From: Candidatus Woesearchaeota archaeon | GTDB lineage: Archaea > Nanobdellota > Nanobdellia > SCGC-AAA011-G17 > PNOQ01 | Reading direction: 5' to 3' | Assembly (NCBI GenBank): GCA_964603065.1 | Contig: CAZRTL010000004.1 | Coordinates: 9,686-73,685, forward strand | DNA: 64,000 bases | Shown: piece by piece, positions 5,782 through 60,487 of the stretch | Position numbering within the stretch: the first letter of the stretch is position 1 | How the letters are laid out: every line of letters starts with the position of its first letter | Made by a program: the position numbers and the translations under genes | Notes under the pieces: model-generated | The model's input: only the letters and a program-made list of their open reading frames with translations | The model's database searches: none | What the model was told of the DNA's origin: nothing

Positions 5782-7169
5782 TTCTTCGTAATTATGTAGC
5801 CTTCTTTAGAATCTTTTATTTCATAACCTTTAGAACTAATTTCGTCTCTTAATTTGTCTGATTCTTCCCAATCTTTGTCTTCTCTTGCTTTTAATCTTTT
5901 TTCTGCTAAACCTTTAATTTCTTTTGGGATTTTTTCTTCTTTGATATTTTTTAAATCTAAACCTAGGACTTCATCAAATTTGTAAAGTAATTCTAATTTT
6001 TCTTTAGAGCCTAATTCTTTATCCCTTAGGACATTCCATAAAACAGAAACGGCTTGAGGAGTATTTAGATCATCATTCAAACCAGATAAAAATTCCTTTT
6101 CATAAGTATTTTTTGTTTTGTTTGAATCTTTTTTTGTTTTTAATTCTAATATTATATTTTTTAATCTGTCATAAGCATTTTTTGCAGAATCTAAAACTTC
6201 TAATGAAAAAGCTAATTTTTTCCTATAATGTGTTAGTAAAGTTAAATATCTAAAATCTAAAGGAGAATAACCTTTTTCTCCTAAATCAGATATTGTGTAA
6301 ACATTTCCTTCAGACTTCGACATCTTTCCTTCTTTAAGAGTTAGCCACCTTAGGTGTAACCAATATTTTACCCAAGGTCTTTTTTTAGTAGCAGCTTCTG
6401 TTTGAGCTATTTCATTTGTATGATGGATTGGGATGTGTTCTTCTCCACCAGTGTGAATATCAAATTGTTCTCCTAAATATTTGGTTGACATTGCGGAACA
6501 TTCGATATGCCAGCCCGGAAACCCTCGGCCCCACGGTGAATCCCATTGCATAATATGGTTGGGCTGGTTTGTAATCCATAAAGCAAAATCTGAAGAATTT
6601 TTTCTTTCTGGGTCTCTTTCAACACGTGCCCCTTGTTTTAATTCTTCTAAATTTAAATTTCCTAGTTTAGTATAGTCTTTTGCTTTTGAAGTATCAAATA
6701 TAAGTCCAATTTTGGTTTTGTATGTGTAACCATTTTTTTCTATTTTTTTGATCATATCTATCATATCTTTAATATGTTCTGTTGCTTTTGCCCATTTTGT
6801 TGGTTCTAAAATATTTAATTTTTTTAAATCTTCAAAGAAAATATCTTCGTATTTTTTTGAGAGTTTTAATAATGATTCAGAAGTTAGAGGCAATTTTTCT
6901 CTTTTTAGAGCTTTCATCATCTTATCTTCACCTTCGTCTGCATCTGAAGTTAAGTGGCCTACATCTGTTATGTTGATTACATTTTTTACTTTTAGTTTGT
7001 TAAATAATAAGGTTCTTTTTAGAATATCTGTAAATATATACATACGCATGTTCCCGATGTGTTGATTCCAATAAGTAGTTGGACCACAAGAATAAGAAGT
7101 AGCAGTCCCTTTTTTTATTGGTTTGAACTCTTCCTTTTTTCTAGTTAGAGTATTATATAGTTTAAGCAT
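5778..7169 (-). CDS. cysS: cysteinyl-tRNA synthetase
   Basis: HIGN (HIGH) and KMSKS motifs, 463 aa; 4-bp overlap with the downstream gene. Confidence 0.9.
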   Translation of the reverse strand: MLKLYNTLTRKKEEFKPIKKGTATSYSCGPTTYWNQHIGNMRMYIFTDILKRTLLFNKLKVKNVINITDVGHLTSDADEGEDKMMKALKREKLPLTSESLLKLSKKYEDIFFEDLKKLNILEPTKWAKATEHIKDMIDMIKKIEKNGYTYKTKIGLIFDTSKAKDYTKLGNLNLEELKQGARVERDPERKNSSDFALWITNQPNHIMQWDSPWGRGFPGWHIECSAMSTKYLGEQFDIHTGGEEHIPIHHTNEIAQTEAATKKRPWVKYWLHLRWLTLKEGKMSKSEGNVYTISDLGEKGYSPLDFRYLTLLTHYRKKLAFSLEVLDSAKNAYDRLKNIILELKTKKDSNKTKNTYEKEFLSGLNDDLNTPQAVSVLWNVLRDKELGSKEKLELLYKFDEVLGLDLKNIKEEKIPKEIKGLAEKRLKAREDKDWEESDKLRDEISSKGYEIKDSKEGYIITKK

Positions 7170-8121: not shown

Positions 8122-9477
8122 ATGAAATATAAGACTCATAATTGCGGCGAACTAACTAAAAAAGAAGTTGGTAAGAATGTTATTTTATCTGGTTTTGTAG
8201 AATCAATTAGAAAGCACGGTAAGATTGGTTTTATTAATTTGAAGGATAGATATGGAATTACTCAAATTTTTTTAAGTAAAGAGTTTAATGAAGAATTATT
8301 GAAGTTAACTAGAGAGTCTGTTGTTAGAGTTGAAGGTGAAGTTAAGAAAAGACCTGATGCTAATAAAAAATTAAAAACGGGAGATATTGAAGTTTCTGCA
8401 AATAAATTTGAAATTTTAACTTTAGCTCCAGAATTGCCTTTAGAATTAAATGAAGATATTGAAAGTACTGAAGAAACTAGATTAAAATATAGATACTTAG
8501 ATTTGAGAAAACCTAAGATGCAGGATAATTTAGTTGTTAGGCATAAAATAATTAAAGCTATTAGAGATTTTTTGGATAAGGAGGATTTTTTAGATGTTGA
8601 AACTCCTTTACTAGCTAAGTCTACTCCAGAAGGAGCTAGAGATTATTTAGTTCCAAGTAGATTAGACAAGGGAAAGTTTTTTGCTTTACCACAAAGTCCG
8701 CAATTATTTAAACAGTTATTGATGATTGCTGGAATCGATAAATATTTTCAGATTGCTAAATGTATGAGAGATGAGGATTTGAGAGCAGATAGACAGCCGG
8801 AATTTACCCAATTAGATTTAGAGATGAGTTTTGTTGAGGAAGAAGATGTTTATGGTTTATTTGAGAAGATGTTAAAGTTTGTTTTCAAAGAAGTTTTGAA
8901 TGAAAATTTGAAAATTCCTTTTGAAAGAATTACTTACGAAGAATCTATGAAAAAATATAAATCAGATAAGCCCGATTTAAGAAAAAAAGGAGAAAAATTC
9001 AAGTTTGCTTGGGTGACTGAATTTCCATTATTTGAATGGAGTGAAGAGCAAAAGAGACATGTTTCTTGCCACCACCCGTTTACAGGAATACACCCAGAGG
9101 ATATCGATAAATTAGGTAAAACTCATGATATTAGAAGTAGAAGTTACGATTTAGTTATGAATGGTTGGGAGCTAGGTAGTGGAAGTGTAAGAATTCACGA
9201 TGGAAAATTACAAAGTGAAGTTTTCAAAGCTTTGAAGTTAGAGGAAAAAGATGCTAAAGAGAGATTTGGTTTCTTTTTAGACGCATTAAAGTTTGCTCCC
9301 CCTCATGCCGGCTTTGCAATAGGATTGGACCGGATGATAGCTTTGATTACTGAAAGTGAATCTATTAGAGAAGTTATTGCATTTCCAAAAAATAAAGATG
9401 CGAAAGATCTTATGTTGGATGCTCCAAGCAAAGTTGATAAAAAACAATTAGATGATTTAGGGATAAAGACAAAATGA
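8122..9477 (+). CDS. aspS: aspartyl-tRNA synthetase, archaeal type
   Basis: Class IIb motifs: FALPQSPQLFKQ, GxGxDR (AIGLDRM), N-terminal OB fold; 451 aa. Confidence 0.9.
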   Translation: MKYKTHNCGELTKKEVGKNVILSGFVESIRKHGKIGFINLKDRYGITQIFLSKEFNEELLKLTRESVVRVEGEVKKRPDANKKLKTGDIEVSANKFEILTLAPELPLELNEDIESTEETRLKYRYLDLRKPKMQDNLVVRHKIIKAIRDFLDKEDFLDVETPLLAKSTPEGARDYLVPSRLDKGKFFALPQSPQLFKQLLMIAGIDKYFQIAKCMRDEDLRADRQPEFTQLDLEMSFVEEEDVYGLFEKMLKFVFKEVLNENLKIPFERITYEESMKKYKSDKPDLRKKGEKFKFAWVTEFPLFEWSEEQKRHVSCHHPFTGIHPEDIDKLGKTHDIRSRSYDLVMNGWELGSGSVRIHDGKLQSEVFKALKLEEKDAKERFGFFLDALKFAPPHAGFAIGLDRMIALITESESIREVIAFPKNKDAKDLMLDAPSKVDKKQLDDLGIKTK

Positions 9478-10754
9478 AATTCATGCCAATAGAAGAAGCA
9501 TTAAAGAAAAAATCTGGAAAAGTAGCTATTCGGGGTTGGATTTATAGAATAAGGAAAATGAAAGATAAGAGTTTTATTGTTATGAGAGATTCTTCTGATA
9601 TTATTCAGTGTGTTTTGAAAACTCCTAAATTAGTTAAGGATGCTGATGATTTACTTATTGAAAGTTCTTTAGAGTTAGAGGGTACTTTGAATAAAGATAA
9701 GAGATCTCCCGGTGGTTATGAATTAAACATTTCTAAAATGAATATTATTCACAAGGCAGATGATTTCCCAATTGGTAAAGATCAAAGTCCTGAATTTTTA
9801 TTAGATCAAAGACATCTGTACATAAGAAGTAGAAAAATGACTGCAATTATGAAAATTAGAAGTACTGTTACTGGTGCTTTACATGAATATTTTAGAGGTA
9901 AAGATTTTTATGAATTTCAGAGTCCGATTATAATTCCTGGTGGAGCTGAAGAAGGGCCCACTATGTTTGAAATTAAATATTTTGATAGGCAAATGTTTTT
10001 GGCTCAAACTTGGCAATTGTATGCTGAAGCGGCAATGTTTGGTTTGGAGAAAATTTATTGTATTGCTCCTTCTTTCAGAGCGGAAAAGTCAAAAACTAGT
10101 AGACACTTAACTGAATACTGGCATACTGAAATGGAAGTTGCCTGGTGTGATTTAAGTCAACTAATGGATTATGCTGAAGAAATGGTCAAATTTGTTTTGG
10201 GTAAAGTTTTGAAGAAAAATAAAAAAGAGTTAGAACTTTTAGGTAGAGATGTTAAGAAATTAGAGCCTTCTCTAAAGAAAAAGTTTCCAAGAATTACTTA
10301 TGATGAGGCTCTAAAGAAATTGGAAAAAAACGGTATGAAGGTTGCTTGGGGTAAAGACTTGCGTACTTTGGAAGAAGAAAAACTAATGGAACTATATGAT
10401 ACTGTTGTTTTTGTAACTCACTATCCTAAAGAAGCTATGGCTTTTTACAAACCTAAGGACCCAAAAAATCCTAAAGTGTCCTTATGTTTTGATGCTCTAG
10501 GTCCTGAAGGGGTTGGAGAGTTGATTGGTGGAAGTGAGAGAGATACAAATATTAAAGAGTTAGTTGGTTCTTTAGAAAAATTAAATGAAAATATTGAAGA
10601 TTATAAATACTATTTAGATACAAGAAAATATGGTAGTGTCCCTCATGCTGGTTTTGGCTTAGGAACTGAAAGATTAATTAGATGGATATGTGGTTTGGAT
10701 TCAATAAAAGATGCCATAGGTTTTCCAAGAACAATACAGAGAACACAGCCTTAA
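9474..10754 (+). CDS. asnS: asparaginyl-tRNA synthetase
   Basis: Class IIb; N-terminal IRGWIYRIRK...FIVMRDSSDIIQCV; GLGTERL motif 3; ATGA overlap with aspS. Confidence 0.85.
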   Translation: MKFMPIEEALKKKSGKVAIRGWIYRIRKMKDKSFIVMRDSSDIIQCVLKTPKLVKDADDLLIESSLELEGTLNKDKRSPGGYELNISKMNIIHKADDFPIGKDQSPEFLLDQRHLYIRSRKMTAIMKIRSTVTGALHEYFRGKDFYEFQSPIIIPGGAEEGPTMFEIKYFDRQMFLAQTWQLYAEAAMFGLEKIYCIAPSFRAEKSKTSRHLTEYWHTEMEVAWCDLSQLMDYAEEMVKFVLGKVLKKNKKELELLGRDVKKLEPSLKKKFPRITYDEALKKLEKNGMKVAWGKDLRTLEEEKLMELYDTVVFVTHYPKEAMAFYKPKDPKNPKVSLCFDALGPEGVGELIGGSERDTNIKELVGSLEKLNENIEDYKYYLDTRKYGSVPHAGFGLGTERLIRWICGLDSIKDAIGFPRTIQRTQP

Positions 10755-11915: not shown

Positions 11916-12350
11916 TTAAATTATTTTCAATTTTTTAAACAATCTTTCCCATGCGGGTTCTAATTTTAAATGTTTTATCTCCTCTTGGGTGTACCATTCC
12001 ATAGATTTTGATTCATGGTTCCTTTTTACTTCTCCGGAATATTCTATTTCATATACATACCAATGATGGATATTTATCCCGTAAGAACACTCTCCAAAAT
12101 GATGTATATCTTCGATTAGTAATTTTGAGTTTTTTACATCTAGGTTACATTCTTCCTTAACTTCTCTTGTTAGGGATTGTTCTGGAGTTTCCCCTTTATC
12201 TACATGACCAGCTATGCAAGCGAATCCGAATGGCGGTTTCTTTCTATCCATTAACAAAAATTTGCCATCCTTCTTTATTATGGCTCCAACTGAAAAGTGC
12301 ATATCCCCTTTTTCAGTTTTTTTAATCTCTAATTCTGTCATTTTAACCAT
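11916..12350 (-). CDS. NUDIX hydrolase
   Basis: Nudix box GHVDKGETPEQSLTREVKEECNL. Confidence 0.8.
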   Translation of the reverse strand: MVKMTELEIKKTEKGDMHFSVGAIIKKDGKFLLMDRKKPPFGFACIAGHVDKGETPEQSLTREVKEECNLDVKNSKLLIEDIHHFGECSYGINIHHWYVYEIEYSGEVKRNHESKSMEWYTQEEIKHLKLEPAWERLFKKLKII

Positions 12351-14920
12351 ATCTTTCTAACTTCTAAAACAGCAACACCTACTAAGGAAACTGCTAAGAT
12401 TCTTATCCAGTCCATTAAGGCTAATCCAGTTAGATGGAACAAACCAGAAATTGGAGTGTAAATTAATAGTAAATGTAAAATTACTGATAATAAAACTGCC
12501 CCAATCAAATATTTGTTCGTTAAAAATCCTAGCTGGAATATGTTTTTCTTTTCAGATCTACAGGAAAACGCTAAAAATAATTCAAAAAATATTAATGTTG
12601 TTAATGCAATTGTTCTCGATTTATCTAAGTCTGATGTTGAAAAGTATTCTAAAGAGAATAATCCTAAAACAATTATTGTTGAAATTATAGTGGTTAGAAT
12701 AATAAATCCTCTTGTTCCCGCTAAAATAGTTTCTTTTGGAGATCTAGGTTTTCTTTTCATAATTCCATTTTCGGCTGGGTCCATTCCCAAAGCTAAAGCA
12801 GGTAATCCATCTGTAACTAAATTAATCCATAAAATTTGTAAAGGTAATAAAGGAAGAGGGAATGAAAATAATAAAGAGAAGAATATTACGGAGATCTCCC
12901 CTAAGTTAGCAGATAATAGAAATTTAACGAACTTTTTGATATTATCATAAATAGATCTCCCATATTTTACAGCCTTTACTATGGTTGAAAAATGATCGTC
13001 CATTAGAACCATATCTGAAGCTTCCTTTGAAACATCGGTTCCAGTAATGCCCATTGCAACTCCAACGTTGGCTTTTTTTAGAGCGGGAGCATCGTTAATT
13101 CCATCTCCAGTCATAGCTACAATGTGTTTATCTTGTTGTAGTGCGTGAAGAATTTTTACTTTATGTTCTGGGTTAACTCGGGCAAAGATTGAAGTTTGTT
13201 TTGCTGCGTTTTGTATTGCTTCATCTGACATTCTATCTAGTTGAACTCCAGTTATGACTTCAGATTTAATTCCTATTTGTTCTCCAATAGCTTGAGCTGT
13301 AAGAGCATTGTCTCCAGTTATCATGACTACTCTCATTCCTGCTTTTTTGGCTATTCTTATTGATTTAGCCACAGATTCACGGGGAGGATCTATCATTCCG
13401 ATTAAACCTAAGAAAATTAAATCTTTCATAGAACCATCTTCAGAATATGCAAAGGCCAGAACTCTTAGTGCGGAAGAAGCCATCTGGTTGTTCATTTCTA
13501 TGATTTTTTCTCTATCCTTATCTGTTAGTGGTCTTACTCTTGTTCCTGTGTTTATTTGTTTACACATCTTAAGAACTATTTCTGGAGCACCTTTCACGTG
13601 AGAATTTTTTGTTTTTCCTTTTTCATCTAAAGTGGCCATATATTTTTTAGAAGAATCAAAAGGAATTTCTTCTAGTCTTTTGAAGTCTGTTTTTATTTTT
13701 CCTTTTAGAGAAACTATTTTTAGAGCCAGTTCAGTAGGCATTCCCTGTTTTTCTTTTGGATCTGCATTATTACATAAATAGGCAGTTTCTAAGAGTTTGT
13801 GTATTTTTTGAGGGTTGTAAGGTTGGCCTCTTTCGGTAAATATTCCTGATGATGAATATCCTGAACCTGTAATGCTGATTAAAGAGTTATTTGCATATAT
13901 TGCTTTGGCAGTCATTTCGCCAGAAGTCATTGTTCCGGTTTTATCGGCACATATGACTGTTGTTGAACCTAGTGTTTCGACGGCTCCTAATTTTCTTATT
14001 AAAGCTTTATTTTTTACTAAACGCTTTACTCCTATGGCTAGAGAGATAGTTACTACAGCTGGCAGGCCTTCCGGAATTGCTGCCACAGCTAAACTTATAG
14101 AAGTCATTAAAGATTCAACTAGAGTTAATTTTTTTAGTAATCCAAGTAAGAAAACAACTATAATTACTCCCAAAGTTATGAATCCTAATTTTTTTCCGAA
14201 TTTTCCAAGTTTTCTTTGTAAAGGTGTAGTTTGTTCTTCAATAGTATGTAATGATTCTGCGATTTTTCCAAATTCGGTTTTATTTCCGGTTCCGGTTACA
14301 ATTGCTTTTCCTCTCCCGTAAGCAATTGCAGTTCCGGCAAAAACCATATTTATTTGATCGGCTAAAACTGAATCTTGTTTAATAGGATCTATGAATTTGT
14401 CTTTTGGTACTGATTCTCCAGTTAGAACTGCTTCGTTTACTCTTAGACTTGTAGATTCTATTATTCTGGCATCTGCAGGAATTTTATCTCCAGTTTCAAG
14501 AATTAGTATATCTCCTGGAACTAATTTGTTAGCTTCAATTTGTTTTATATGTCCGTTTCTTAGAACTTTGGCATGTGGAGCTGCCATTTTTTTTAGTAAT
14601 GCTAGGGCTTTTTCGGCTTTGTATTCTTGAGTAAATCCTAGAGCTGCGTTTATTATTACTATTGCAAGAATTACATAAGCGTCTAGAAAATGTTGTATTG
14701 CTAAGGAAATAATTATTGCTGCTAATAATATGTATACTAAAGGATTAATGAATTGTTGAATTAATATTTTTAGAGGTGAAAGCTTTTTTTCGTGTGTTAT
14801 TTCGTTTAAGCCGTATTTTTTTTGTCTTAGATCTACTTTTAGTTGTTTAAGCCCTATTTTTTCATCTACTTGTAATTTTTTTAGAACATCCTCTTTTGAT
14901 AGTTTATAGAACTCTGACAT
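12338..14920 (-). CDS. P-type cation-transporting ATPase (type II, Ca2+/cation)
   Basis: DKTGTMT phosphorylation site, TGES-like, MTGDGINDAPALKKA hinge motif, about 10 TM; 860 aa. Confidence 0.9.
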   Translation of the reverse strand: MSEFYKLSKEDVLKKLQVDEKIGLKQLKVDLRQKKYGLNEITHEKKLSPLKILIQQFINPLVYILLAAIIISLAIQHFLDAYVILAIVIINAALGFTQEYKAEKALALLKKMAAPHAKVLRNGHIKQIEANKLVPGDILILETGDKIPADARIIESTSLRVNEAVLTGESVPKDKFIDPIKQDSVLADQINMVFAGTAIAYGRGKAIVTGTGNKTEFGKIAESLHTIEEQTTPLQRKLGKFGKKLGFITLGVIIVVFLLGLLKKLTLVESLMTSISLAVAAIPEGLPAVVTISLAIGVKRLVKNKALIRKLGAVETLGSTTVICADKTGTMTSGEMTAKAIYANNSLISITGSGYSSSGIFTERGQPYNPQKIHKLLETAYLCNNADPKEKQGMPTELALKIVSLKGKIKTDFKRLEEIPFDSSKKYMATLDEKGKTKNSHVKGAPEIVLKMCKQINTGTRVRPLTDKDREKIIEMNNQMASSALRVLAFAYSEDGSMKDLIFLGLIGMIDPPRESVAKSIRIAKKAGMRVVMITGDNALTAQAIGEQIGIKSEVITGVQLDRMSDEAIQNAAKQTSIFARVNPEHKVKILHALQQDKHIVAMTGDGINDAPALKKANVGVAMGITGTDVSKEASDMVLMDDHFSTIVKAVKYGRSIYDNIKKFVKFLLSANLGEISVIFFSLLFSFPLPLLPLQILWINLVTDGLPALALGMDPAENGIMKRKPRSPKETILAGTRGFIILTTIISTIIVLGLFSLEYFSTSDLDKSRTIALTTLIFFELFLAFSCRSEKKNIFQLGFLTNKYLIGAVLLSVILHLLLIYTPISGLFHLTGLALMDWIRILAVSLVGVAVLEVRKIWLK

Positions 14921-14995
14921 GGTGTGATTTAATTACTATATGTTTAAATTTGTTTTGGTTGAAAGGAGAAGAAAGGGGTTTTATCCCCGTTTCTA

Positions 14996-15187
14996 TTATT
15001 CTTCTAGTCTCCTCTCCGCACCGTCCCTTAGGTAACGGATATCTGCTAGCCATACTTTTCTTTCATATTTGGAGCCAGGCTCGTCTGTATAGGGTTCACT
15101 ATCGGCTTGGCTGATTTTTCTTTCGAGTTTGTCTAGTTCTCTTACAAGTGTTTTTTGGAGTTGTCTTCGTTGATATTCGTCCGTCAT
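14996..15187 (-). CDS. small charged hypothetical protein in a GC-elevated island
   Basis: 63 aa; codon usage GC-richer than its neighbours; directly downstream of the PHPT1-like gene on the same strand. Confidence 0.35.
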   Translation of the reverse strand: MTDEYQRRQLQKTLVRELDKLERKISQADSEPYTDEPGSKYERKVWLADIRYLRDGAERRLEE

Positions 15188-15210
15188 TTTTTATTCCCCT
15201 TTGTTGGTTT

Positions 15211-15561
15211 TTAGTATCCTTTCCCCATTTGTACTAGTACTTCTTTTCCTAGGTCGGATGCATATTCTTTTAGTATCTTTTCTACTGTTTCTTGGTCTGC
15301 TTTGCCGTAGTCTCCGCTGTATCCGTATGCGTGGATTGAATCTTCCGTAACTTTGATTCTTCCTCCGCCCGAAACACTTTCTAGGTGGAATCCTATTGGT
15401 AATTTTCGCGGGTATTGATGTACAATATGCCTATGCCATTCTACTCCTGGCTGACCGACCAAGACCGTTCTTTCGTCTTTTCCATCCGTTACTTCAGCAA
15501 GGACAAACTTATATGTTCCTTCTGCTGGTAGGACCACTTGTTCCAAATCTTTTAGTTCCAT
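15211..15561 (-). CDS. PHPT1/Janus (Ocnus) family phosphohistidine phosphatase homolog
   Basis: Aligns along its whole length with the human 14-kDa phosphohistidine phosphatase: GTYKFVLAEV vs GVFKYVLIRV; VEWHRHI vs AEYHADI (catalytic His); SGGGRIKV...IHAYGYSGDYG vs LGGGRISH...IHVYGYSMAYG; C-terminal GKGY vs NDGY. Strong Shine-Dalgarno GGAGGT upstream. Confidence 0.7.
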   Translation of the reverse strand: MELKDLEQVVLPAEGTYKFVLAEVTDGKDERTVLVGQPGVEWHRHIVHQYPRKLPIGFHLESVSGGGRIKVTEDSIHAYGYSGDYGKADQETVEKILKEYASDLGKEVLVQMGKGY

Positions 15562-15695
15562 TTTCGTTTACCTCCTTCAGTTGCGTCATTGCGTCGTGCT
15601 CAGGTTTTTGAGCATTAAATGTGTAAATAAATATTTGTTGTGGATATTTCTACAACAATAGAAACATTTATAATTAAGAAAAATTTTAGAAAAGT

Positions 15696-16418
15696 ATGCA
15701 ATTTGAAGAGATTAGAGAAACTTTGAAGAAAATAGGATTGGGACATAATGAATCTAAAATATATTTGACTTTGTTGAGATTTGGCCCTAGTATGGCCGGA
15801 AGAATTGCTAAAGAAGCAAATATTGATAGAAGTGCTTGTTATGATTCTTTGAAGGCTTTATTGAAAAAGGGTTTAATTAGTTATGCTATAGAGGCCAATA
15901 GGAAAAAATTTGCCGTTAATGATCCACAGAGATTGAAAGATTATTTGAAAGAGAAAGAAGAGCTTGTTGATGATATATTGCCGAATTTGAGTTCTTGGTT
16001 TTCTAGTAAGGGTGAAAAATCCCAGGTTTTGATGTATAAAGGTTATAAGGGATTGAAATCTGTTTTTGAAGATATTTTAAAAGAGGCTAAAGAAAATTTA
16101 GTTATAGATTCTTCTGGAGCGTTTATGCAGAGGATGCCTTATTATGCTCCACATTTTATTAGAGGTTTAGAAAAGAAGAAAATTAAAGTTAGACATATTG
16201 TTAGAAGGAAAACAAATACTAATCCTAGTAAAACTACTAGCTTAAGATATTTTTCAAGAAATATTAAAGAAACTACAATAACCACTAATATTTACAATAA
16301 TAAAGTTGCTATGATTATATGGTCGGATGTTCCTGAGGCAGTTGTGATAGAAAATAAAGGAGCGGCAGAGGCTTATAGAGATTATTTTGAAATGTTGTGG
16401 AAACAGGCCAAGAAATAA
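15696..16418 (+). CDS. TrmB-family transcriptional regulator
   Basis: N-terminal wHTH LGHNESKIYLTLLRFGPSMAGRIAKEANIDRSACYDSLKALLKKGLI typical of TrmB; 240 aa. Confidence 0.75.
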   Translation: MQFEEIRETLKKIGLGHNESKIYLTLLRFGPSMAGRIAKEANIDRSACYDSLKALLKKGLISYAIEANRKKFAVNDPQRLKDYLKEKEELVDDILPNLSSWFSSKGEKSQVLMYKGYKGLKSVFEDILKEAKENLVIDSSGAFMQRMPYYAPHFIRGLEKKKIKVRHIVRRKTNTNPSKTTSLRYFSRNIKETTITTNIYNNKVAMIIWSDVPEAVVIENKGAAEAYRDYFEMLWKQAKK

Positions 16419-16534: not shown

Positions 16535-17287
16535 ATGAAAATTAATGAAGATCTTGCTGAAGCATTTGGAATTCATGCTGGAGATGGATATTTAAGAGTT
16601 AAAGAAAGAAACAGAGGCGAGATAGATATTAGTGGAAATATTGAAGAAAAAGGATATTATGATGACCACGTAGTTCCTTTGTTTAATAAAATATTTAATT
16701 TAGATATGGGAGGAAGATATTTTTCTAGAGGTACTTATGGGTTTGTTAATTGTCAAAAGGAAGTTAGAAACGTTTTTCTTGAAGCAGGTTTCCCTTCTGG
16801 TAAAAAATCGCAAATTGTAAAAACCCCAGATTGTATTTTGAATAGTGGAGATGAAAAAATATACTCTAAATTTTTAAGGGGATATTTTGATACTGATGGT
16901 TGTTTATATTTTTGTAACAAAAAGGGAGGGGGAAAATATTGTGATTTCAAGAAAAAGTTTCATTATTATCCTCTTTTATCAGTATCTAGTGTATCGAAAA
17001 GATTAATTGAGGATGTGGTGTTTATTCTTAATAGAATTGGATTGCCTCACTATACTTATGATTATCAACCAAAAAATAAAAGAGATAATCATAAATGGGT
17101 TATAACTATTGCTGGAAAAAGTAGACTAGAGAAATGGATGAAATTAATAGGCACTAAAAATCCAGTAAAGCTCAGTAGATATTTAGTTTGGAAAAAGTTT
17201 GGATTTTGTCCTCCACATACTACTTTAAAGCAAAGGGAAGATTTTTTAAATGATAAAGCAGATATCAATTTACTATATTCAGCTTAA
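16535..17287 (+). CDS. free-standing double-motif LAGLIDADG endonuclease-family protein
   Basis: Motif 1 LAEAFGIHAGDGYL, motif 2 FLRGYFDTDGCL; 250 aa. Confidence 0.75.
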   Translation: MKINEDLAEAFGIHAGDGYLRVKERNRGEIDISGNIEEKGYYDDHVVPLFNKIFNLDMGGRYFSRGTYGFVNCQKEVRNVFLEAGFPSGKKSQIVKTPDCILNSGDEKIYSKFLRGYFDTDGCLYFCNKKGGGKYCDFKKKFHYYPLLSVSSVSKRLIEDVVFILNRIGLPHYTYDYQPKNKRDNHKWVITIAGKSRLEKWMKLIGTKNPVKLSRYLVWKKFGFCPPHTTLKQREDFLNDKADINLLYSA

Positions 17288-20758: not shown

Positions 20759-21121
20759 ATGAAAAAGTCATATCAAGTTTATATTTTAATTGGAATTGTT
20801 CTAATCTTATTTATAATGCTGTTAATCACACGACCCATTATATTTAATTCACCAAATAATGGGGAAACTTGGATAGATAAAGATGGAAATATATGTCAAG
20901 CATCTCAAAATGATGCCAAACTATCCCCCGAAATTCAAAAAAGTGGAGCGAGTGGAACATGTCAATGTAGTACAAATGATCAAGGAGAAGAAATATGTTG
21001 TAAATGTAGTGTGGGGGGTTGTCCAGGTTGTTCTCCTTCCGGATCTTCCTGTCAATGCGAAGGGGGAGATTCCATTATACCTTTAGATACAACTTGGTCA
21101 AATATAAAAAATCTATTCTGA
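20759..21121 (+). CDS. small secreted/membrane-anchored Cys-rich protein
   Basis: N-terminal TM or signal (ILIGIVLILFIMLLI), 14 Cys in a 60-aa C-terminal region; immediately upstream of the protease gene. Confidence 0.5.
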   Translation: MKKSYQVYILIGIVLILFIMLLITRPIIFNSPNNGETWIDKDGNICQASQNDAKLSPEIQKSGASGTCQCSTNDQGEEICCKCSVGGCPGCSPSGSSCQCEGGDSIIPLDTTWSNIKNLF

Positions 21122-21125
21122 CAAA

Positions 21126-22925
21126 ATGAAAAAAATAATTTTTCTAATATTGTTCCTTGTTATCATTTCAAGCTGCATGATACAGGAAAAATCTCCACCC
21201 TCATTTAAAAAAATTTCGGAAATAGCTTCTGAAGAATATTGGGATTCTGGCTTTACTTATGATTTTCCTTACTCTTTTGATTGGTCTTATAGACATAATG
21301 ACAATTATATAACCGATCGGGACGAACAACATTCTAATAATTGTTGGTCTTACTCTACAGTTGCCGCTGTAGAATCTCATATGTTACTTACGGGGAGGGG
21401 AGAGTATGATTTTTCAGAACTAGGACTTATGTGGGAATGCCAAGAAAGGGTAGACTGTTATCTAATAAACTATATGGGTTGCAACGGCGGATCTGCGCGC
21501 CATGCAATTGGGATACTGGGGACTATTGCATATGAGGAAAGCTCTAATTGTTACCCAAATTCAGATCTAGAAAACCCTGGTTATCCTCATAATAGTTGTT
21601 CTTGTCCAAATTGTGTAGATCAAACTGATGATAATTCCAGTAATGACCCCTATAGTTGTAGCGCATATAATTTAGGAATCGGCTCAGGAATGAAACAAAA
21701 CATAATTATAACACAGGAAATGGTAAAATATCATTTGCTTTCAAGGGGTCCACTCACAGCCTCTTTCGCTCCAGGACCATATGGTGGAATTCATAATATG
21801 TTAATTTATGGTTACAGTGGAAATAATTGGATTGTTAAAGATAGCGCCTATAATAATTATCAAGATCGTCCTATGTCGGATACATTGTATAATATAGCCT
21901 GGCCAGAGAGCGGCTATTCTGAATTTTGCCAAAATGATGATGGTGATGCTTTTTGTTGGTGGGGAATAAGTTCAATGGTTGAATATCATGATCCGTTTGA
22001 AATATTTGGCTTACCTAGTAGCTGTGATGGGAAAGGATGTAGCAGAAATGAACCAGATTTTAATGATTATGTTGCTTGTGAAATAGATTCATCGGAAAAT
22101 TCTAATGGTGGGTGTGCACCCGAATTTGCCTGTGGTGATGGAGTTTGTCAGGGTTGGGAGTCATGCAGAACTGGTCCGCCGAATGGAGGGTGTTTTAACG
22201 ACTGCTACATACCTGGATATGGGGGCAGAAGTGATGCCTGTTGCGGGAACGGAATCTTCGAAGAGGTGGAAGATTGTTCAAACTGTCCACAGGACGTCCC
22301 AGGAGGCTGTCCCGAATGTTCTGATAGAATAGATAACGATGGAGATGGATTTGTTGATTACCAAGGTTATGTGTTTTCAGAATCAGATCAAGATTGTGAA
22401 AATTTTGAAGATGATTCAGAATCTACGGAAGAATGTATTTGTGGAGACAATAACTTGTGTGGCGACGAAATATGTGAATTAACTCAAGAAAGTAATGTGA
22501 TATGCTATGATGCTCTAGCACAAGATAAAAAATGTTATGGTCCATTTAGTTCATCTGATGATAGCTATTGGGATAAAGGAGCATGGATGGATAATAAATG
22601 TTATCCCTTGGTTGGAACAACTACTAGGGATTGCGAAAATTGTGAGAATTGGATTCCTAATTGGGATGATTGTAAAACTTGTCCTGCAGTTGACGGTATA
22701 AATCCGGAAGATTATTTGGAAAGAGTGTATGTGACAGAAACAGAATGTAGGCAAAAAAGATATTCGGATAATCAATGGGTAAATATTCCATTTGAAACAT
22801 ATCCTAGACAGTTTCCAAAAACAAAAGACATTCATTTCGAAGAACAGTCACCTGGAGAATCACTGAAAAGTTCTATTTGGAATAAACTTAAGTGTGCGTT
22901 GCTAACTTGTTCAGAGGATAGCTAG
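21126..22925 (+). CDS. secreted papain-like (C1-family) cysteine protease with Cys-rich, Ca-binding-like C-terminal extension
   Basis: Signal/lipobox (IISSCM), catalytic Cys NCWSYSTVAAVES, His HNMLIYGY, Asn/Trp downstream, DNDGDGFVD thrombospondin/dockerin-like motif; 599 aa. Confidence 0.75.
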   Translation: MKKIIFLILFLVIISSCMIQEKSPPSFKKISEIASEEYWDSGFTYDFPYSFDWSYRHNDNYITDRDEQHSNNCWSYSTVAAVESHMLLTGRGEYDFSELGLMWECQERVDCYLINYMGCNGGSARHAIGILGTIAYEESSNCYPNSDLENPGYPHNSCSCPNCVDQTDDNSSNDPYSCSAYNLGIGSGMKQNIIITQEMVKYHLLSRGPLTASFAPGPYGGIHNMLIYGYSGNNWIVKDSAYNNYQDRPMSDTLYNIAWPESGYSEFCQNDDGDAFCWWGISSMVEYHDPFEIFGLPSSCDGKGCSRNEPDFNDYVACEIDSSENSNGGCAPEFACGDGVCQGWESCRTGPPNGGCFNDCYIPGYGGRSDACCGNGIFEEVEDCSNCPQDVPGGCPECSDRIDNDGDGFVDYQGYVFSESDQDCENFEDDSESTEECICGDNNLCGDEICELTQESNVICYDALAQDKKCYGPFSSSDDSYWDKGAWMDNKCYPLVGTTTRDCENCENWIPNWDDCKTCPAVDGINPEDYLERVYVTETECRQKRYSDNQWVNIPFETYPRQFPKTKDIHFEEQSPGESLKSSIWNKLKCALLTCSEDS

Positions 22926-39591: not shown

Positions 39592-40437
39592 ATGGAAATG
39601 GATGTTGAAAGCACTTCTAAATTAATAAGGGGTAAGAAGGAAATTTGTGTTTTTTATAATGATAAAATTTTTGAAGAAGTTATGTCTAATTTGAATCCAA
39701 AAGAAATTATGGGAATTTCTAGAAGATCTGTTTATTATTGGAAGCAAAAAGAGAGACCTATTCCAGTTTCTCATTTAGTCAGTATTTGTAAAAATAATAA
39801 TATTGAAAAAATTAATCTTGTGTCTTTATCTACCAATAGCGGAAATAAAATTAATTTACCTGAAAGCAATAATTTATCTTTATATCATTTTTTGGGATTA
39901 TTATTGGGAGACGGATGTCTTTGTATAAGTAAAGAAAGAGAATTGAAGAGACAAAGCTACACAGTTAGAATTGCTGTTAATAGCAAAAATAGAATAAATC
40001 AAATTTCTAGATTAATGGAGTCTCTTTTTGGAATTAAACCTAGTTGTCATAAATGTAAAGGGTGCTATGAAGTTTGTATTTACTCTAAGGCTTTGTTATT
40101 TTTCTTGAATACATATTATGAAATCCCCATTGGTGAAAAATATCCACTTATGAAGGTTCCTTTGAGAATAAAAAATGATTTTGATAGTATAAGATATTTT
40201 CTAAGAGGATTAATGGATAGCGATGGAAATCAATATATCTATAGGGGGAGATTGTGTTTTCAATTGAGACAAAAATCTGGAGAATTTCTTAGTGAAGTCT
40301 ATAACTTATTTCATAAAATTGGTATGAATATAAATGGGCCCTATTTTGATAAAGCTAATAATTCTTGGGTGATTTGGTGTAGTAAAAAAAACATTGTAGA
40401 TAAATTTATAAATGAAATAGATGCTCTTAAAATTTAG
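39592..40437 (+). CDS. LAGLIDADG endonuclease-family protein with N-terminal HTH
   Basis: Motif 1 LYHFLGLLLGDGCL, motif 2 FLRGLMDSDGNQ; N-terminal HTH-like segment (EIMGISRRSVYYWKQK); 281 aa. Confidence 0.7.
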   Translation: MEMDVESTSKLIRGKKEICVFYNDKIFEEVMSNLNPKEIMGISRRSVYYWKQKERPIPVSHLVSICKNNNIEKINLVSLSTNSGNKINLPESNNLSLYHFLGLLLGDGCLCISKERELKRQSYTVRIAVNSKNRINQISRLMESLFGIKPSCHKCKGCYEVCIYSKALLFFLNTYYEIPIGEKYPLMKVPLRIKNDFDSIRYFLRGLMDSDGNQYIYRGRLCFQLRQKSGEFLSEVYNLFHKIGMNINGPYFDKANNSWVIWCSKKNIVDKFINEIDALKI

Positions 40438-40438
40438 T

Positions 40439-40560
40439 GGACTGGTAGCTCAGCTTGGATAGAGCACTAAAGAAGTTTTGCGCGAGTATGCTTCTGTGTA
40501 GGCCTTCTAAACCAAGTTGAAGAAAGCTAGGGGTCGAGGGTTCAAATCCCTTCCAGTCCG
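40439..40560 (+). tRNA. tRNA-like gene interrupted by a ~48-nt insertion (intron-containing tRNA or pseudo-tRNA); anticodon unresolved
   Basis: Perfect 7-bp acceptor stem GGACTGG/CCAGTCC; canonical D-arm TAGCTCAGCTTGGATAGAGCA; T-arm GAGGG-TTCAAAT-CCCTT; ~48 extra nt between them. No single-intron model gives a canonical anticodon loop. It starts 2 nt after the stop codon of the LAGLIDADG gene. Confidence 0.5.
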
Positions 40561-55623: not shown

Positions 55624-56220
55624 ATGAAGATTTTAGCATTTACAGATGTACATGGAAATGATAACATCATAAAGGAAGTTTGTAAATTAGCTAGGTTGAA
55701 AAAACCTGATTTATTAGTTTGTCCAGGGGACTTAACTATATTTGGACAGGATTTGAATGAAGTTTTGTTTAAGTTTAATAAGATTGATATCCCCTTAATA
55801 GTTATTCCTGGAAATCATGAAGAAGGGGAAGATATGAAAAAGATTTGTGATAAATTCAAAAATATTATTTATCTACATCGAGGAATTTTTGAAATTGAAA
55901 ATTATATTTTCTTTGGTTTTGGAGGGGATGGATTTAGCCAAACAAATACAGAATTTGAAAAGATATCAAAAATTATAGGGAAGAAGTTTAAAGGGAAAGA
56001 AATAATTTTGATTACTCATCAGCCACCATATGGGACAAAATTGGATTATTTAGAATATTTTGAACATGTTGGCAACAAATCTTATAGAAAATTTATAGAA
56101 GAATTTAAACCGATTTTAGCTTTATCTGGACACTTGCATGAGAATTTTGGTGAGATGGATAATCTTGGAACAACAATTTTGATTAATCCGGGCCCATTGG
56201 GAAAGATGATTAAAATTTAA
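55624..56220 (+). CDS. metallophosphoesterase (YfcE/MJ0936-like)
   Basis: FTDVHGN, CPGDLTIFG, PGNHE, GHLHE motifs; 198 aa. Confidence 0.7.
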   Translation: MKILAFTDVHGNDNIIKEVCKLARLKKPDLLVCPGDLTIFGQDLNEVLFKFNKIDIPLIVIPGNHEEGEDMKKICDKFKNIIYLHRGIFEIENYIFFGFGGDGFSQTNTEFEKISKIIGKKFKGKEIILITHQPPYGTKLDYLEYFEHVGNKSYRKFIEEFKPILALSGHLHENFGEMDNLGTTILINPGPLGKMIKI

Positions 56221-58643: not shown

Positions 58644-58674
58644 TTTAATTTAGAGAATAAATTGGCTTTATAAA

Positions 58675-59880: not shown

Positions 59881-59881
59881 T

Positions 59882-60049: not shown

Positions 60050-60050
60050 T

Positions 60051-60446: not shown

Positions 60447-60487
60447 ACAAGAGAAAGAGAAAAAGGGATGTTTATAAAATTTTTGTT

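What the first reader, a model, noticed from the sequence alone, without database searches (positions are those of the whole stretch)
14930..15690. GC-elevated two-gene island encoding a eukaryote-like PHPT1/Janus phosphohistidine phosphatase homolog
The 116-aa protein encoded at 15211..15561 aligns end to end with the animal 14-kDa phosphohistidine phosphatase, including the catalytic His context and the GGGRI...YGYS core. The Janus/PHPT1 family is overwhelmingly eukaryotic. The gene and the 63-aa ORF downstream of it are visibly richer in G+C than the ~30% GC surroundings. The gene also has a strong GGAGGT ribosome-binding site, which is unlike most genes in this window. Together these point to horizontal acquisition, possibly from a eukaryotic or bacterial donor. 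Protein histidine phosphorylation in a minimal archaeon would be of interest.
Basis: partly seen in the sequence, partly recalled or inferred. Interest (0 to 1): 0.6.

Follow-up and report, generated by a model that had tools for sequence, protein, structure and literature searches.

The report
Archaeal PHPT1-like phosphatase gene island
A small AT-rich archaeon carries a real relative of the animal phosphohistidine phosphatase PHPT1 on a two-gene stretch of foreign-looking DNA, which probably came from another archaeon rather than a eukaryote and sits under the operator of a conserved regulator that controls nucleotide-metabolism genes in related archaea.

Summary
ORF 15211..15561(-) is a Janus/PHPT1-family protein: Pfam PF05005 E=1.2e-16, AF2 model pLDDT 97, TM 0.8 to human PHPT1, and equivalents of K21, H53, R78 and S94 conserved. 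This gene and the 63-aa ORF 14996..15187(-) form a 648-bp GC-rich segment (0.43 vs 0.31). They have the most atypical synonymous codon use of 67 genes (z -4.5 and -5.0), while both flanking genes and the ribosomal-protein genes are native.

Lateral acquisition is likely, but the nearest relatives (42-53% identity) are rare archaeal sequences, mostly Woesearchaeota MAGs. Animal proteins reach at most 37%.

New here is a 24-bp palindrome, TTGTTGTAG-N6-CTACAACAA (15635-15658), between the gene and a divergent TrmB-family regulator.
- The same palindrome precedes Janus genes in four other archaeal loci.
- It also precedes the regulator's orthologs (68-74% identity) that have no Janus gene nearby.
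- In four of those ortholog loci it heads, or lies beside, operons with NDK, dCTP deaminase, a kinase of the UMP-kinase family (PF00696) or Maf.
- Observed 14 sites against 0.07 expected.

The strong GGAGG site is a trait of this archaeal clade. The 63-aa ORF is an orphan. Phosphatase activity, the substrate (possibly NDK-linked phosphohistidine) and the donor are all inferred.

The parts
15211..15561 (-). Janus/PHPT1-family gene, 116 aa. Predicted phosphohistidine/phosphoramidate phosphatase.
   Evidence: PF05005 E=1.2e-16. AF2 model pLDDT 96.9. Foldseek finds human PHPT1 at TM 0.79-0.81, E=8e-9, and nothing else below E=0.03. K18, H43, R68 and S82 align with PHPT1 K21, H53, R78 and S94.
15570..15575 (-). 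Shine-Dalgarno site GGAGGT, 8 nt upstream of the ATG.
   Evidence: Read from the sequence. GGAGG lies 6-9 nt before the ATG in all 7 aligned genes of this subclade.
15590..15601 (-). Conserved GC-rich motif GAGCACGACGCA in the 5' leader. Function unknown.
   Evidence: The same motif occurs in the leader of the homologs in L012 (GAGCACGACGCA) and L023 (GAGCACAACGC).
15635..15658 (.). 24-bp palindrome TTGTTGTGGATATTTCTACAACAA. Predicted operator of the TrmB-family regulator, shared by the two divergent promoters.
   Evidence: It is the only match in the window. At 2 mismatches or fewer there are 14 sites in 210 kb of window plus related loci, against 0.07 expected. All 14 lie upstream of Janus genes or of operons in the regulator's ortholog loci.
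15621..15634 (-). AT-rich TATA-like element (ATATTTATTTAC) abutting the palindrome. Putative core promoter of the Janus gene.
   Evidence: Read from the sequence. An A(T/C)(A/G)TT(T/G) element directly follows the palindrome in 6 of the 7 aligned subclade loci; L011 reads AGATTT. Inferred; no transcript data.
15667..15676 (+). TATA-like element TTTATAATTA, about 20 nt before the regulator's ATG. Suggests a leaderless transcript.
   Evidence: Read from the sequence. The spacing from the palindrome to the first ATG is 37-38 nt in the window, L019, L020, L025 and L028. Inferred.
14996..15187 (-). Orphan 63-aa ORF, probably co-transcribed with the Janus gene. Charged and probably helical; function unknown.
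   Evidence: It starts 23 nt after the Janus stop, with AGGGG 8 nt before its ATG. Its GC pattern by codon position is coding-like (0.58/0.36/0.34). It shares the rare codon preferences of the Janus gene: CTA, GAC, ATC, ACG. No Pfam, NCBIfam, PHROG or PADLOC family. Its 90% cluster is a singleton. No homolog in any fetched locus.
14970..14994 (-). Terminator-like hairpin GGGG-AUAAAA-CCCC followed by a U/C-rich tract, just after orf63.
   Evidence: RNA fold -10.2 kcal/mol, z = -1.9. Found by the pattern scan. Weak evidence.
14957..15604 (.). Extent of the compositionally atypical segment: orf63, the Janus gene, the SD and the leader.
   Evidence: Maximal-scoring GC segment. The flanking ATPase (z +0.91; its first 300 nt, -0.37) and the regulator gene (z +0.65) are native.
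15696..16418 (+). Divergent TrmB-family regulator, 240 aa: winged HTH, coiled coil and a PLD-like C-terminal domain. Native composition. Predicted to bind the palindrome.
   Evidence: PF01978 E=6.5e-15. PDB TrmB 3qph E=1.3e-6. AF2 model pLDDT 78. Foldseek hits are TrmBL2 5bqt at E=5e-13 over the full length, TrmB at 3e-9, and Zucchini/PLD6 at 4e-5 for the C-terminal domain. More than 100 ortholog clusters at 63-76% identity.

Best explanation
The 116-aa protein belongs to the PHPT1/Janus family. It most likely hydrolyses N-P bonds (phosphohistidine on proteins, phosphoramidate) by the PHPT1 mechanism: His43 acts as a general base on water, with no phospho-enzyme intermediate.

The gene sits on a segment of about 650 bp that also holds its leader, its strong SD and an orphan 63-aa ORF. 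This segment entered the lineage laterally and fairly recently, from another archaeon of unknown identity rather than from a eukaryote.

The segment lies head to head with a native, highly conserved TrmB-family regulator. A 24-bp palindrome sits between the two core promoters. The regulator is predicted to bind this palindrome, controlling both its own gene and the Janus gene.

In other Nanoarchaeota-type (DPANN) archaea the same palindrome precedes Janus genes. In several of the regulator's ortholog loci it also heads, or lies beside, operons that include NDK, dCTP deaminase, an AA_kinase-family (PF00696, UMP-kinase family) gene and Maf. The phosphatase is therefore best read as an accessory member of a nucleotide-pool regulon. 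Its substrate may be phosphohistidine generated by NDK-type phosphotransfer.

Shown here: family, fold, conserved residues, compositional anomaly, conservation of the palindrome and leader, and gene neighbourhoods.
Inferred: enzyme activity, substrate, binding of the regulator to the palindrome, direction and donor of the transfer, and expression of orf63.
For: Family and fold. Conserved K18, H43, GGGR and S82 across 35 homologs. Mechanism of PHPT1: review PMC11277029.

Foreign composition.
- Codon z is -4.46 and -4.97, against +0.65 (regulator), +0.91 (ATPase) and -0.75 to +1.02 (L1, P0 and P1 ribosomal-protein genes). The two genes share the same rare codons.
- The segment has sharp limits.
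- A homolog in another 30%-GC host has native GC3 of 0.17, so the family does not require GC-rich codons.

Archaeal relatives. Best hits are 42-53% identical and come from Woesearchaeota MAGs and metagenomes. Animal proteins reach at most 37%.

Rarity. The closest clusters hold 1-5 sequences. The adjacent regulator has more than 100 clusters at 63-76% identity. Ten contexts of the regulator's orthologs (68-76% identity; DNA available for eight) show no Janus gene.

Operator. There are 14 palindromes at 2 mismatches or fewer, against 0.07 expected.
- 55-87 nt upstream of Janus genes in the window, L008 (three copies), L011, L012 and L013.
- 37-38 nt upstream of the first gene of the regulator's operon in the window, L019, L020, L025 (NDK-TrmB) and L028 (DCD-TrmB).
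- Also before AAA_28/DCD/AA_kinase/TrmB and 149aa/Maf in L026, and BtpA/Maf in L028.

The divergent TrmB-Janus arrangement recurs in L008 and L012.

NDK and PHPT1 act on the same substrates in animals: PMC7461546.
Against: - No enzymology. PHPT1 residues R45 and H102, reported as important, are Val35 and Gln90 here.
- The donor is unidentified. None of eight sampled codon tables fits the two genes clearly better than the host's own.
- No integrase, adjacent tRNA or target-site duplication marks the segment.
- The TrmB-Janus divergon in three lineages, and the similar divergence of the regulator (44%) and Janus (53%) between the window and L008, are also compatible with ancient vertical descent plus many losses.
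- The 'relatives' without a Janus gene are not very close: FtsZ is 64% identical to L025.
- The exhaustive search used 50%-identity representatives and did not list the query itself, so closer relatives could be hidden inside a cluster.
- The palindrome consensus was derived from three of the 14 sites.
- L009, L010, L014 and L023 Janus genes lack the palindrome.
- The phylogeny is unresolved, with bootstrap about 10% for the archaeal/metazoan split.
Confidence: 0.6

Rival explanations
1. The TrmB-Janus divergon is ancestral in these archaea and was inherited vertically. The patchy distribution reflects repeated loss, and the odd composition of the two genes has another cause.
For: The divergent TrmB-palindrome-Janus arrangement occurs in the window, in L008 (Woesearchaeota) and in L012. 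L012 also has ProRS beside the regulator, as the window nearly does. The regulator and Janus have diverged to similar degrees from L008 (44% and 53%). No mobility genes or target duplications are present.
Against: The two genes have the worst codon fit of 67 genes, and they share the same rare synonymous choices. The regulator, 135 bp away, and the ATPase, 76 bp away, are native. Ribosomal-protein genes with strong SD sites use native codons, so this is not an expression effect. A homolog that has long resided in a 30%-GC genome has GC3 of 0.17. orf63 has no counterpart beside any other Janus gene.
Confidence: 0.2
2. The gene was captured directly from a eukaryote, or from a bacterium.
For: All named family members are metazoan. 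A profile built from the archaeal clade hits nematode and insect proteins at E=1e-25 to 1e-38. Pairwise identity to animal proteins is 30-37%.
Against: Archaeal and uncultivated sequences are clearly closer (42-53%). They share clade-specific traits: the C-terminal V.MG.GY tail, Val at the R45 position, Gln at the H102 position, the GGAGG leader and the archaeal regulator's palindrome. No labelled metazoan falls on the window protein's side of the NJ tree, though support is weak. The gene has no intron or eukaryotic features.
Confidence: 0.05
3. The protein is not a protein-histidine phosphatase. One option is that it acts on a small molecule, such as a phosphoramidate or a nucleotide-linked intermediate in nucleotide-pool housekeeping. 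The other is that it is a non-catalytic Janus-fold protein.
For: Other genes preceded by the same palindrome are nucleotide-metabolism enzymes: NDK, dCTP deaminase, Maf and an AA_kinase-family (PF00696) gene. Some family members are fused to NUDIX domains, and a NUDIX gene lies in the same gene string in the window. R45 and H102 are not conserved. PHPT1 itself hydrolyses free phosphoramidate (my own knowledge).
Against: The catalytic His, the GGGR loop, Lys18 and Ser82 are invariant or nearly so across the clade. That argues for a retained PHPT1-type active site. No small-molecule pathway is indicated by adjacent genes in the window.
Confidence: 0.25
4. The GC elevation is a trivial result of amino-acid composition or chance, and orf63 is a spurious ORF.
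For: GC1 is about 0.6 in every homolog, and most homologs are 4-8 GC points above their host locus. orf63 has no homolog anywhere.
Against: Conditioned on the amino-acid sequence, GC3 and synonymous choice remain extreme in both ORFs. The segment score is far above the shuffles. orf63 shows coding-type GC periodicity and the same rare codons as its neighbour. The region has no Rfam match.
Confidence: 0.05

Closest known systems
Human PHPT1, the 14-kDa phosphohistidine phosphatase (PDB 2HW4, 2NMM, 2AI6)
   Same: Same Pfam family (PF05005), same fold (TM about 0.8) and same length class. The catalytic His (H53/H43), K21/K18, the GGGR loop with R78/R68, YGYS with S94/S82, and the C-terminal GY are all conserved.
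   Different: Only 26-27% identical. R45 is Val and H102 is Gln. It lacks the loop at residues 29-37 of the human protein. The host is archaeal, and the gene has an SD-led mRNA under a TrmB-family operator. Activity has not been tested.
Drosophila Janus-A, Janus-B and Ocnus, and nematode PHIP-1
   Same: Same family. These are the named sequences retrieved by the clade profile, at E=1e-22 to 1e-38.
   Different: These are animal proteins, some duplicated or with two domains. Their biology (sex-regulated expression, axon regeneration) has no counterpart here.
Uncultivated archaeal Janus-family genes (Woesearchaeota MAGs JAHFLT01 and JACQSS01; contig CAYJVI010000050; metagenome contigs)
   Same: Closest relatives, at 42-53% identity. 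They share the V.MG.GY tail and the GGAGG leader, and most share the upstream palindrome. Two have the same divergent TrmB-family neighbour.
   Different: Their hosts have 42-49% GC. Copy number differs: three tandem copies in L008 and two loci per MAG. None has orf63 downstream. None is close enough to be the donor.
TrmB, TrmBL1 and TrmBL2 regulators of Thermococcales
   Same: The neighbouring regulator has the TrmB winged HTH (PF01978), the coiled-coil arm and a PLD-like domain. Full-length Foldseek hits are TrmBL2 and TrmB.
   Different: It is 240 aa and has no C-terminal sugar-binding barrel. Its predicted operator, TGTTGTAG-N6-CTACAACA, differs from the Thermococcales TGM motif TATCAC-N5-GTGATA (my own knowledge). 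Its neighbourhoods point to nucleotide metabolism rather than sugar metabolism.
The animal NME/NDPK-PHPT1 histidine kinase/phosphatase pair
   Same: An NDK gene (L025) and PHPT1-family genes are preceded by the same operator in related archaea. In animals, PHPT1 reverses NME1/2-dependent histidine phosphorylation (PMC7461546).
   Different: Here the link comes from regulon membership across different genomes. NDK and Janus have not been seen together in one genome, and no substrate is known.
SixA, the bacterial phosphohistidine phosphatase of phosphorelays
   Same: The proposed activity on phosphohistidine.
   Different: SixA belongs to the unrelated histidine-phosphatase superfamily and uses a phospho-enzyme intermediate (my own knowledge). 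The protein here has no similarity to it.

Membership tests
Janus/Ocnus/PHPT1 family (Pfam PF05005) | Profile-HMM score above the curated gathering threshold over most of the domain | tested here: met
   61.1 bits against a cutoff of 23, E=1.2e-16, profile positions 2-102 of 108.
Janus/Ocnus/PHPT1 family (Pfam PF05005) | PHPT1 alpha/beta fold | tested here: met
   AF2 model pLDDT 96.9. Foldseek against PDB returns the human PHPT1 chains as the top five hits, TM 0.75-0.81, E=8e-9 to 9e-7. The next hit is at E=0.035.
Janus/Ocnus/PHPT1 family (Pfam PF05005) | Catalytic histidine (human H53) in the E-[YW]-H context | tested here: met
   H43 aligns with H53. It is conserved in at least 90% of 35 homologs and is invariant among the 10 closest.
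Janus/Ocnus/PHPT1 family (Pfam PF05005) | Phosphate-binding residues K21, R78 (GGGR loop) and S94 (YGYS) | tested here: met
   K18, G65-G66-G67-R68 and S82 are conserved.
Janus/Ocnus/PHPT1 family (Pfam PF05005) | Accessory residues reported as important in human PHPT1 (R45, H102) | tested here: not met
   The aligned residues are Val35 and Gln90. Gln90 is conserved in the archaeal clade. These residues do not define the family, but their absence lowers confidence in identical kinetics or specificity.
Janus/Ocnus/PHPT1 family (Pfam PF05005) | Phosphohistidine/phosphoramidate phosphatase activity | not testable with these tools
   Requires a recombinant enzyme assay.
TrmB family of archaeal transcription regulators (the neighbouring gene) | N-terminal TrmB winged helix-turn-helix | tested here: met
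   PF01978 E=6.5e-15, residues 10-77. PDB TrmB 3qph E=1.3e-6.
TrmB family of archaeal transcription regulators (the neighbouring gene) | Full-length TrmB/TrmBL2 architecture (HTH, coiled coil, PLD-like domain) | tested here: met
   Foldseek: TrmBL2 5bqt at E=4.8e-13 over about 270 columns; TrmB 3qph at 3.3e-9; Zucchini/PLD6 at 3.9e-5 for the C-terminal domain. TM is only about 0.4 because the domains are oriented differently, and the model's pLDDT is 78.
TrmB family of archaeal transcription regulators (the neighbouring gene) | C-terminal sugar-binding subdomain of TrmB proper | tested here: not met
   The protein is 240 aa against 338 aa for TrmB. The sequence match to TrmB ends at residue 145. 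Overall it resembles the shorter TrmBL2.
TrmB family of archaeal transcription regulators (the neighbouring gene) | Sequence-specific binding to the palindromic operator | not testable with these tools
   Only comparative evidence is available: 14 sites against 0.07 expected, at stereotyped positions.
Horizontally acquired genomic island | Composition and codon use distinct from the host, with sharp boundaries | tested here: met
Horizontally acquired genomic island | Absent from related genomes | tested here: inconclusive
   Ten contexts of the regulator's orthologs (68-76% identity) show no Janus gene. No homolog above 53% identity was found. However, those relatives are distant (FtsZ 64%), synteny is not conserved, and the 50%-representative library may hide closer sequences.
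Horizontally acquired genomic island | Mobility hallmarks (integrase, flanking tRNA, direct repeats) or an identified donor | tested here: not met
   No flanking direct repeats; only a weak 12-nt inverted repeat. The nearest tRNA is 1.8 kb away. No viral homologs. No codon table identifies a donor.

The most novel reading that the evidence does not exclude
DPANN archaea of the Nanoarchaeota, Woesearchaeota and Pacearchaeota type have a nucleotide-pool regulon governed by a short TrmB-family regulator through the operator TGTTGTAG-N6-CTACAACA. Nucleoside diphosphate kinase and PHPT1-family phosphatases are both members. If so, an NDK/PHPT1 histidine-phosphorylation axis like the animal NME-PHPT1 pair operates in archaea and may predate, or have seeded, the eukaryotic one. 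The phosphatase would then travel between lineages as an operator-promoter-leader-gene cassette that connects to the resident regulator on arrival.
Probability: 0.2. Interest if true: 0.8.

Novelty: new member of a known kind. Interest (0 to 1): 0.5.

Why it matters
PHPT1 is the founding protein-histidine phosphatase of animals and is usually discussed as a eukaryotic enzyme. I found no paper that links it to archaea.

A conserved archaeal clade would give a simple prokaryotic system for studying PHPT1-type chemistry. It has an intact active site, its own regulatory cassette, and an operator shared with NDK and other nucleotide-metabolism genes.

It would also yield a testable hypothesis for what non-two-component histidine phosphorylation does in reduced, symbiotic archaea, and a data point on where the eukaryotic NME/PHPT1 pair came from.

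The palindrome-regulator pair is also a ready-made, testable regulon in DPANN archaea, a group with almost no characterised transcription regulation.

If the enzyme proves inactive, or the regulator does not bind, what remains is an ordinary case of a rare accessory gene acquired laterally.

Tried and rejected
- Word-index homolog search with the single protein found only the query itself. This index also missed known 52%-identity relatives, so I did not use it to argue absence.
- NCBIfam, PHROGs and PADLOC gave nothing for either ORF. A weak Pfam hit of orf63 to Plasmid_RAQPRD (E=0.006, below the cutoff) was dismissed.
- A structured-RNA explanation for the GC-rich segment was rejected: no Rfam match at E<=1 on either strand.
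- A viral vector was not supported: no relatives in IMG/VR and no significant BFVD fold match. One distant short-form homolog does sit in a phage-like context.
- Identifying the donor by codon-table likelihood over eight sets of loci was uninformative.
- The NJ phylogeny with 200 bootstraps separates labelled metazoans from the archaeal side, but support is only about 10%. I do not use it to infer direction.
- The search for target-site duplications or flanking repeats found nothing convincing.
- Expression-linked codon bias was rejected, because the L1, P0 and P1 genes with strong SD sites use native codons.
- The AFDB fold library was unavailable.
- The first alignment was too diverse for locus scanning. 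The pattern finally used, [HY]A[YF]GYSx[SDG][YF]G, is narrow, so the counts of prokaryotic loci are lower bounds.
- L005's apparent lack of the ATPase comes from indels in a 99.4%-identical contig, not from a real variant site.
Full report
**1. What is in the sequence**

The minus strand between 14.9 and 15.7 kb carries two short ORFs in tandem.
- A 116-aa ORF at 15211..15561.
- A 63-aa ORF at 14996..15187, starting 23 nt after the first ORF's stop.
- GGAGGT lies at 15570-15575, 8 nt before the first ATG.
- AGGGG lies 8 nt before the second ATG.
- A weak terminator-like hairpin (14970-14994; -10.2 kcal/mol, z -1.9) follows the second ORF.

On the same strand downstream come a P-type ATPase (12338..14920), a NUDIX protein and an amino-acid permease. 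A 240-aa TrmB-family regulator (15696..16418) is transcribed divergently upstream.

Nine metagenome contigs from marine samples carry the same locus at 99.4-100% DNA identity. That makes one population, with no informative variation.

**2. The family assignment is solid**

- The 116-aa protein scores 61 bits against Pfam PF05005 (cutoff 23; E=1.2e-16) over nearly the whole domain.
- The only solved relative by sequence is human PHPT1.
- An AlphaFold2 model built on 35 homologs has pLDDT 96.9.
- Foldseek against the PDB returns the human PHPT1 entries alone (TM 0.75-0.81, E down to 8e-9). The next hit is at E=0.035.
- In the alignment, Lys18, His43, Gly65-Arg68 and Ser82 match PHPT1 Lys21, His53, the GGGR78 loop and Ser94. 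These positions are invariant or nearly so across the homologs.
- PHPT1 is thought to use His53 as a general base on water, with no phospho-enzyme intermediate (PMC11277029). The same chemistry is the default inference here.
- Two residues reported as important in the human enzyme, Arg45 and His102, are Val35 and Gln90. Kinetics or specificity may therefore differ.

**3. The compositional island is real and is not explained by the protein sequence alone**

- The window averages 31% GC. The two ORFs are 42.5% and 42.7%.
- A maximal-segment scan delimits 14957-15604 (648 nt, GC 0.427, score 19.6 against a shuffle maximum of 12.1). This covers orf63, the Janus gene, its SD and about 40 nt of leader.
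- Part of the excess is intrinsic to the family. GC1 is about 0.6 in all homologs, and most homologs sit 4-8 GC points above their host locus.
- After conditioning on the amino-acid sequence, both ORFs still have excess GC3 (z +3.3 and +2.9). Their fit to the window's synonymous usage is the worst of 67 genes (z -4.46 and -4.97; background sd 1.2, minimum -3.3).
- The two ORFs share the same unusual choices: Leu CTA, Asp GAC, Thr ACG and Ile ATC in both, with Val GTC and Tyr TAC marked only in the Janus gene.
- The regulator gene (z +0.65) and the ATPase (z +0.91; its first 300 nt, -0.37) are native.
- The ribosomal-protein genes L1, P0 and P1 also have strong SD sites and use native codons. 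The signal is therefore not an expression-linked bias.
- A homolog living in another 30%-GC genome (L014) has GC3 of 0.17, so long residence would be expected to erase the signal.

I conclude that the two ORFs share a foreign origin and arrived together, relatively recently.

**4. Where the gene came from**

- An exhaustive HMMER search of 1.84 billion cluster representatives found 104 relatives. The best is 52% identical, and 16 have E<1e-10.
- Most of the strongest hits (nearly all of the best 15 and many below them) align end to end and share a C-terminal V.MG.GY tail.
- Pattern scans placed such genes in three MAGs: two Woesearchaeota MAGs (nzgw44, with one locus carrying three tandem copies plus a second locus; NC_groundwater_1391, with two loci), and one 7.8-kb contig binned as Methanosarcinales.
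- Six metagenome contigs also carry such genes.
- The closest clusters are tiny, with 1-5 members on short contigs.
- A profile built from the clade retrieves hundreds of named proteins. All are metazoan (nematodes, insects, vertebrates, sponges, cnidarians), and their pairwise identity to the window protein is at most 37%.
- A neighbour-joining tree puts all 25 labelled metazoans on one side and the window protein with 56 unlabelled or archaeal sequences on the other. Bootstrap support is only about 10%, so the deep history is unresolved.

The immediate donor, however, is much more likely another archaeon than a eukaryote or a bacterium.

No sampled locus has codon usage that identifies the donor. 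No viral relatives were found.

**5. A conserved regulatory cassette**

The 134-bp spacer between the Janus gene and the regulator holds a 24-bp palindrome, TTGTTGTGGATATTTCTACAACAA (15635-15658). AT-rich TATA-like elements flank it on both sides.

Aligning the upstream regions of the homologs shows the same arrangement each time: palindrome, A/T-rich element, a leader of 55-87 nt, and GGAGG 6-9 nt before the ATG. This holds for L008 (all three copies), L011, L012 and L013.
- A GC-rich leader motif, GAGCAC(G/A)ACGC, is shared by the window, L012 and L023.
- The divergent regulator-Janus arrangement recurs in L008 (regulator 44% identical) and L012 (43%). In L012, ProRS also lies next to the regulator, as it nearly does in the window.

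**6. The regulator and its other targets**

- Unlike the Janus gene, the regulator is abundant and very conserved. More than 100 cluster representatives are 63-76% identical, and the named ones come from Nanoarchaeota, Pacearchaeota and 'archaeon' MAGs.
- It is better conserved than FtsZ (72.5% against 64% between the window and L025).
- It has the TrmB winged HTH.
- Its model (pLDDT 78) matches TrmBL2 and TrmB over the full length. The C-terminal domain is PLD-like, and there is no sugar-binding barrel.

I examined ten contexts of its orthologs at 68-76% identity, with DNA available for eight. None has a Janus gene. In seven of the eight loci with DNA the palindrome is present upstream of the regulator's operon; L024 starts too close to the regulator gene to tell. 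In five cases the palindrome sits 37-38 nt before the first ORF: the window, L019, L020, L025 and L028.

What the palindrome precedes:
- L025: NDK then the regulator, as one operon.
- L028: dCTP deaminase (DCD) then the regulator.
- L026: an AAA_28 protein, DCD and an AA_kinase-family (PF00696, the UMP-kinase family) gene, then the regulator.
- L026 and L028: further palindromes precede 149aa/Maf and BtpA/Maf.
- L019: Maf is the called gene on the divergent side, about 135 nt from the palindrome, and a phosphoribosyltransferase follows the regulator.

Across 210 kb of window plus non-redundant loci there are 14 palindromes with 2 mismatches or fewer, against 0.07 expected from shuffles. All 14 are at such positions. 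The consensus was derived from three of them, so eleven are independent.

I infer that this regulator autoregulates, that it controls a nucleotide-metabolism regulon, and that Janus genes are sporadic accessory members of that regulon.

NDK works through a phosphohistidine intermediate. In animals it is the kinase whose substrates PHPT1 dephosphorylates (PMC7461546). That makes NDK-linked phosphohistidine the most attractive substrate hypothesis. It rests only on regulon membership across different genomes.

**7. The 63-aa ORF**

It has coding-type GC periodicity (0.58/0.36/0.34), an SD-like motif, the same odd codons as its neighbour, and a terminator-like hairpin after it rather than before it. 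It has no family hit, no cluster mates and no homolog beside any other Janus gene.

I treat it as a probable small charged protein of unknown role that was co-transferred with the phosphatase gene. The genes downstream of the Janus gene in other loci are unrelated to it and to each other.

**8. Rival readings**

- Vertical inheritance of an ancestral divergon with many losses remains possible (about 0.2). The arrangement recurs in three lineages and there are no mobility hallmarks. This reading does not explain the sharp shift in codon use shared by the two ORFs.
- Direct capture from a eukaryote or a bacterium is unlikely (about 0.05).
- A small-molecule or nucleotide-linked substrate, rather than protein phosphohistidine, is a serious functional alternative (about 0.25), given the regulon and the NUDIX fusions elsewhere in the family.

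**9. Caveats**

- The representative library is clustered at 50% identity and did not return the query itself, so closer relatives could be hidden.
- The pattern used for locus scans is narrow.
- The taxonomy of the window is inferred from marker families and the names of homologs, not from rRNA.
- The 'Methanosarcinales' contig is short and could be mis-binned.
- Nothing about activity, DNA binding or transcription has been measured.

**10. Verdict**

The protein is a new archaeal member of a known enzyme family. The more novel element is the operator-linked cassette and its connection to a predicted nucleotide/NDK regulon in DPANN archaea. That connection is a hypothesis that can be tested directly.

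Noticed in passing
window 20759-22925 (+), peak 21313-22314: This is the highest-scoring GC-rich segment of the window (GC 0.415, score 23.4). It lies inside a 599-aa ORF with no Pfam hit and atypical codon use (z -3.3), preceded by a 120-aa ORF with no Pfam hit. It is a second candidate foreign or unusual gene pair.
   Followed up: partly
L025 3492-4735; L026 256-4735; L028 1301-4735; L019 2261-3625: Orthologs of the TrmB-family regulator sit in palindrome-preceded operons or divergons with NDK, dCTP deaminase, an AA_kinase-family (PF00696) gene, an AAA_28 protein, Maf, BtpA and a phosphoribosyltransferase. This looks like a nucleotide-metabolism regulon in DPANN archaea.
   Followed up: partly
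window 56210-62717 compared with L025 1-8735: The window block Wyosine-synthase/TatD/M50 protease/131 aa/112 aa/FKBP/FtsZ shares its gene order in part with L025: FtsZ, FKBP, the 131-aa protein's homolog and the M50 protease match by sequence, and the wyosine-formation gene by Pfam family only. In L025 the NDK-regulator operon lies inside that block. The regulator gene has therefore moved in one of the two lineages.
   Followed up: partly
L017 1165-6683 (and L016): A short-form (about 100 aa) Janus homolog, 39% identical, lies directly after a tRNA-like sequence in a phage-like context: M15 peptidase, an AAA_33 protein (the kinase class that includes polynucleotide kinase), a LAGLIDADG protein and T4-type RNA ligase 1. 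Viruses may carry one branch of the family.
   Followed up: partly
L008 4154-8325: The Woesearchaeota MAG nzgw44 carries three tandem Janus genes, each with its own palindrome and near-identical leader. Between copies 1 and 2 there is an ORF on the opposite strand (5874-6407) that matches the Pycsar effector family PycTM at E=1e-8.
   Followed up: partly
L027 2904-3254 (-); L028 893-1243 (-): A conserved 116-aa protein family with no Pfam hit is transcribed divergently from palindromes in two loci of the regulator's orthologs. A 116-aa no-Pfam gene is also called in a third such context for which no DNA was available. It is not related to the Janus protein. It may be another regulon member.
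   Followed up: no
window 16535-17287 (+); 39592-40437 (+); 40439-40560 (+): The window has two free-standing LAGLIDADG_3 ORFs. The second ends just before a 122-nt tRNA match from Rfam that ARAGORN does not call, which suggests an intron-containing archaeal tRNA.
   Followed up: no
window 14989-15000 and 15654-15665: A 12-nt imperfect inverted repeat, GTTTCTATTATT / AACAATAGAAAC, brackets the atypical segment. One arm is just after the orf63 stop and the other overlaps the edge of the palindrome. It may be chance.
   Followed up: no
window 8122-10754 (+): Two adjacent class-II Asp/Asn-type tRNA synthetase genes (451 and 426 aa) overlap by 4 nt. Both carry tRNA_anti-codon and tRNA-synt_2 domains.
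   Followed up: no
P0062, P0099 (proteins): Some family members of about 555 aa fuse an NADH-pyrophosphatase-like NUDIX domain to a C-terminal Janus domain. The window also has a NUDIX gene (11916-12350) in the same gene string as the Janus gene.
   Followed up: no
L005 3773-5129: One contig of the same population (99.4% identical) has five indels in the P-type ATPase region that break the ORF. This is either an assembly error or a pseudogenised allele.
   Followed up: partly
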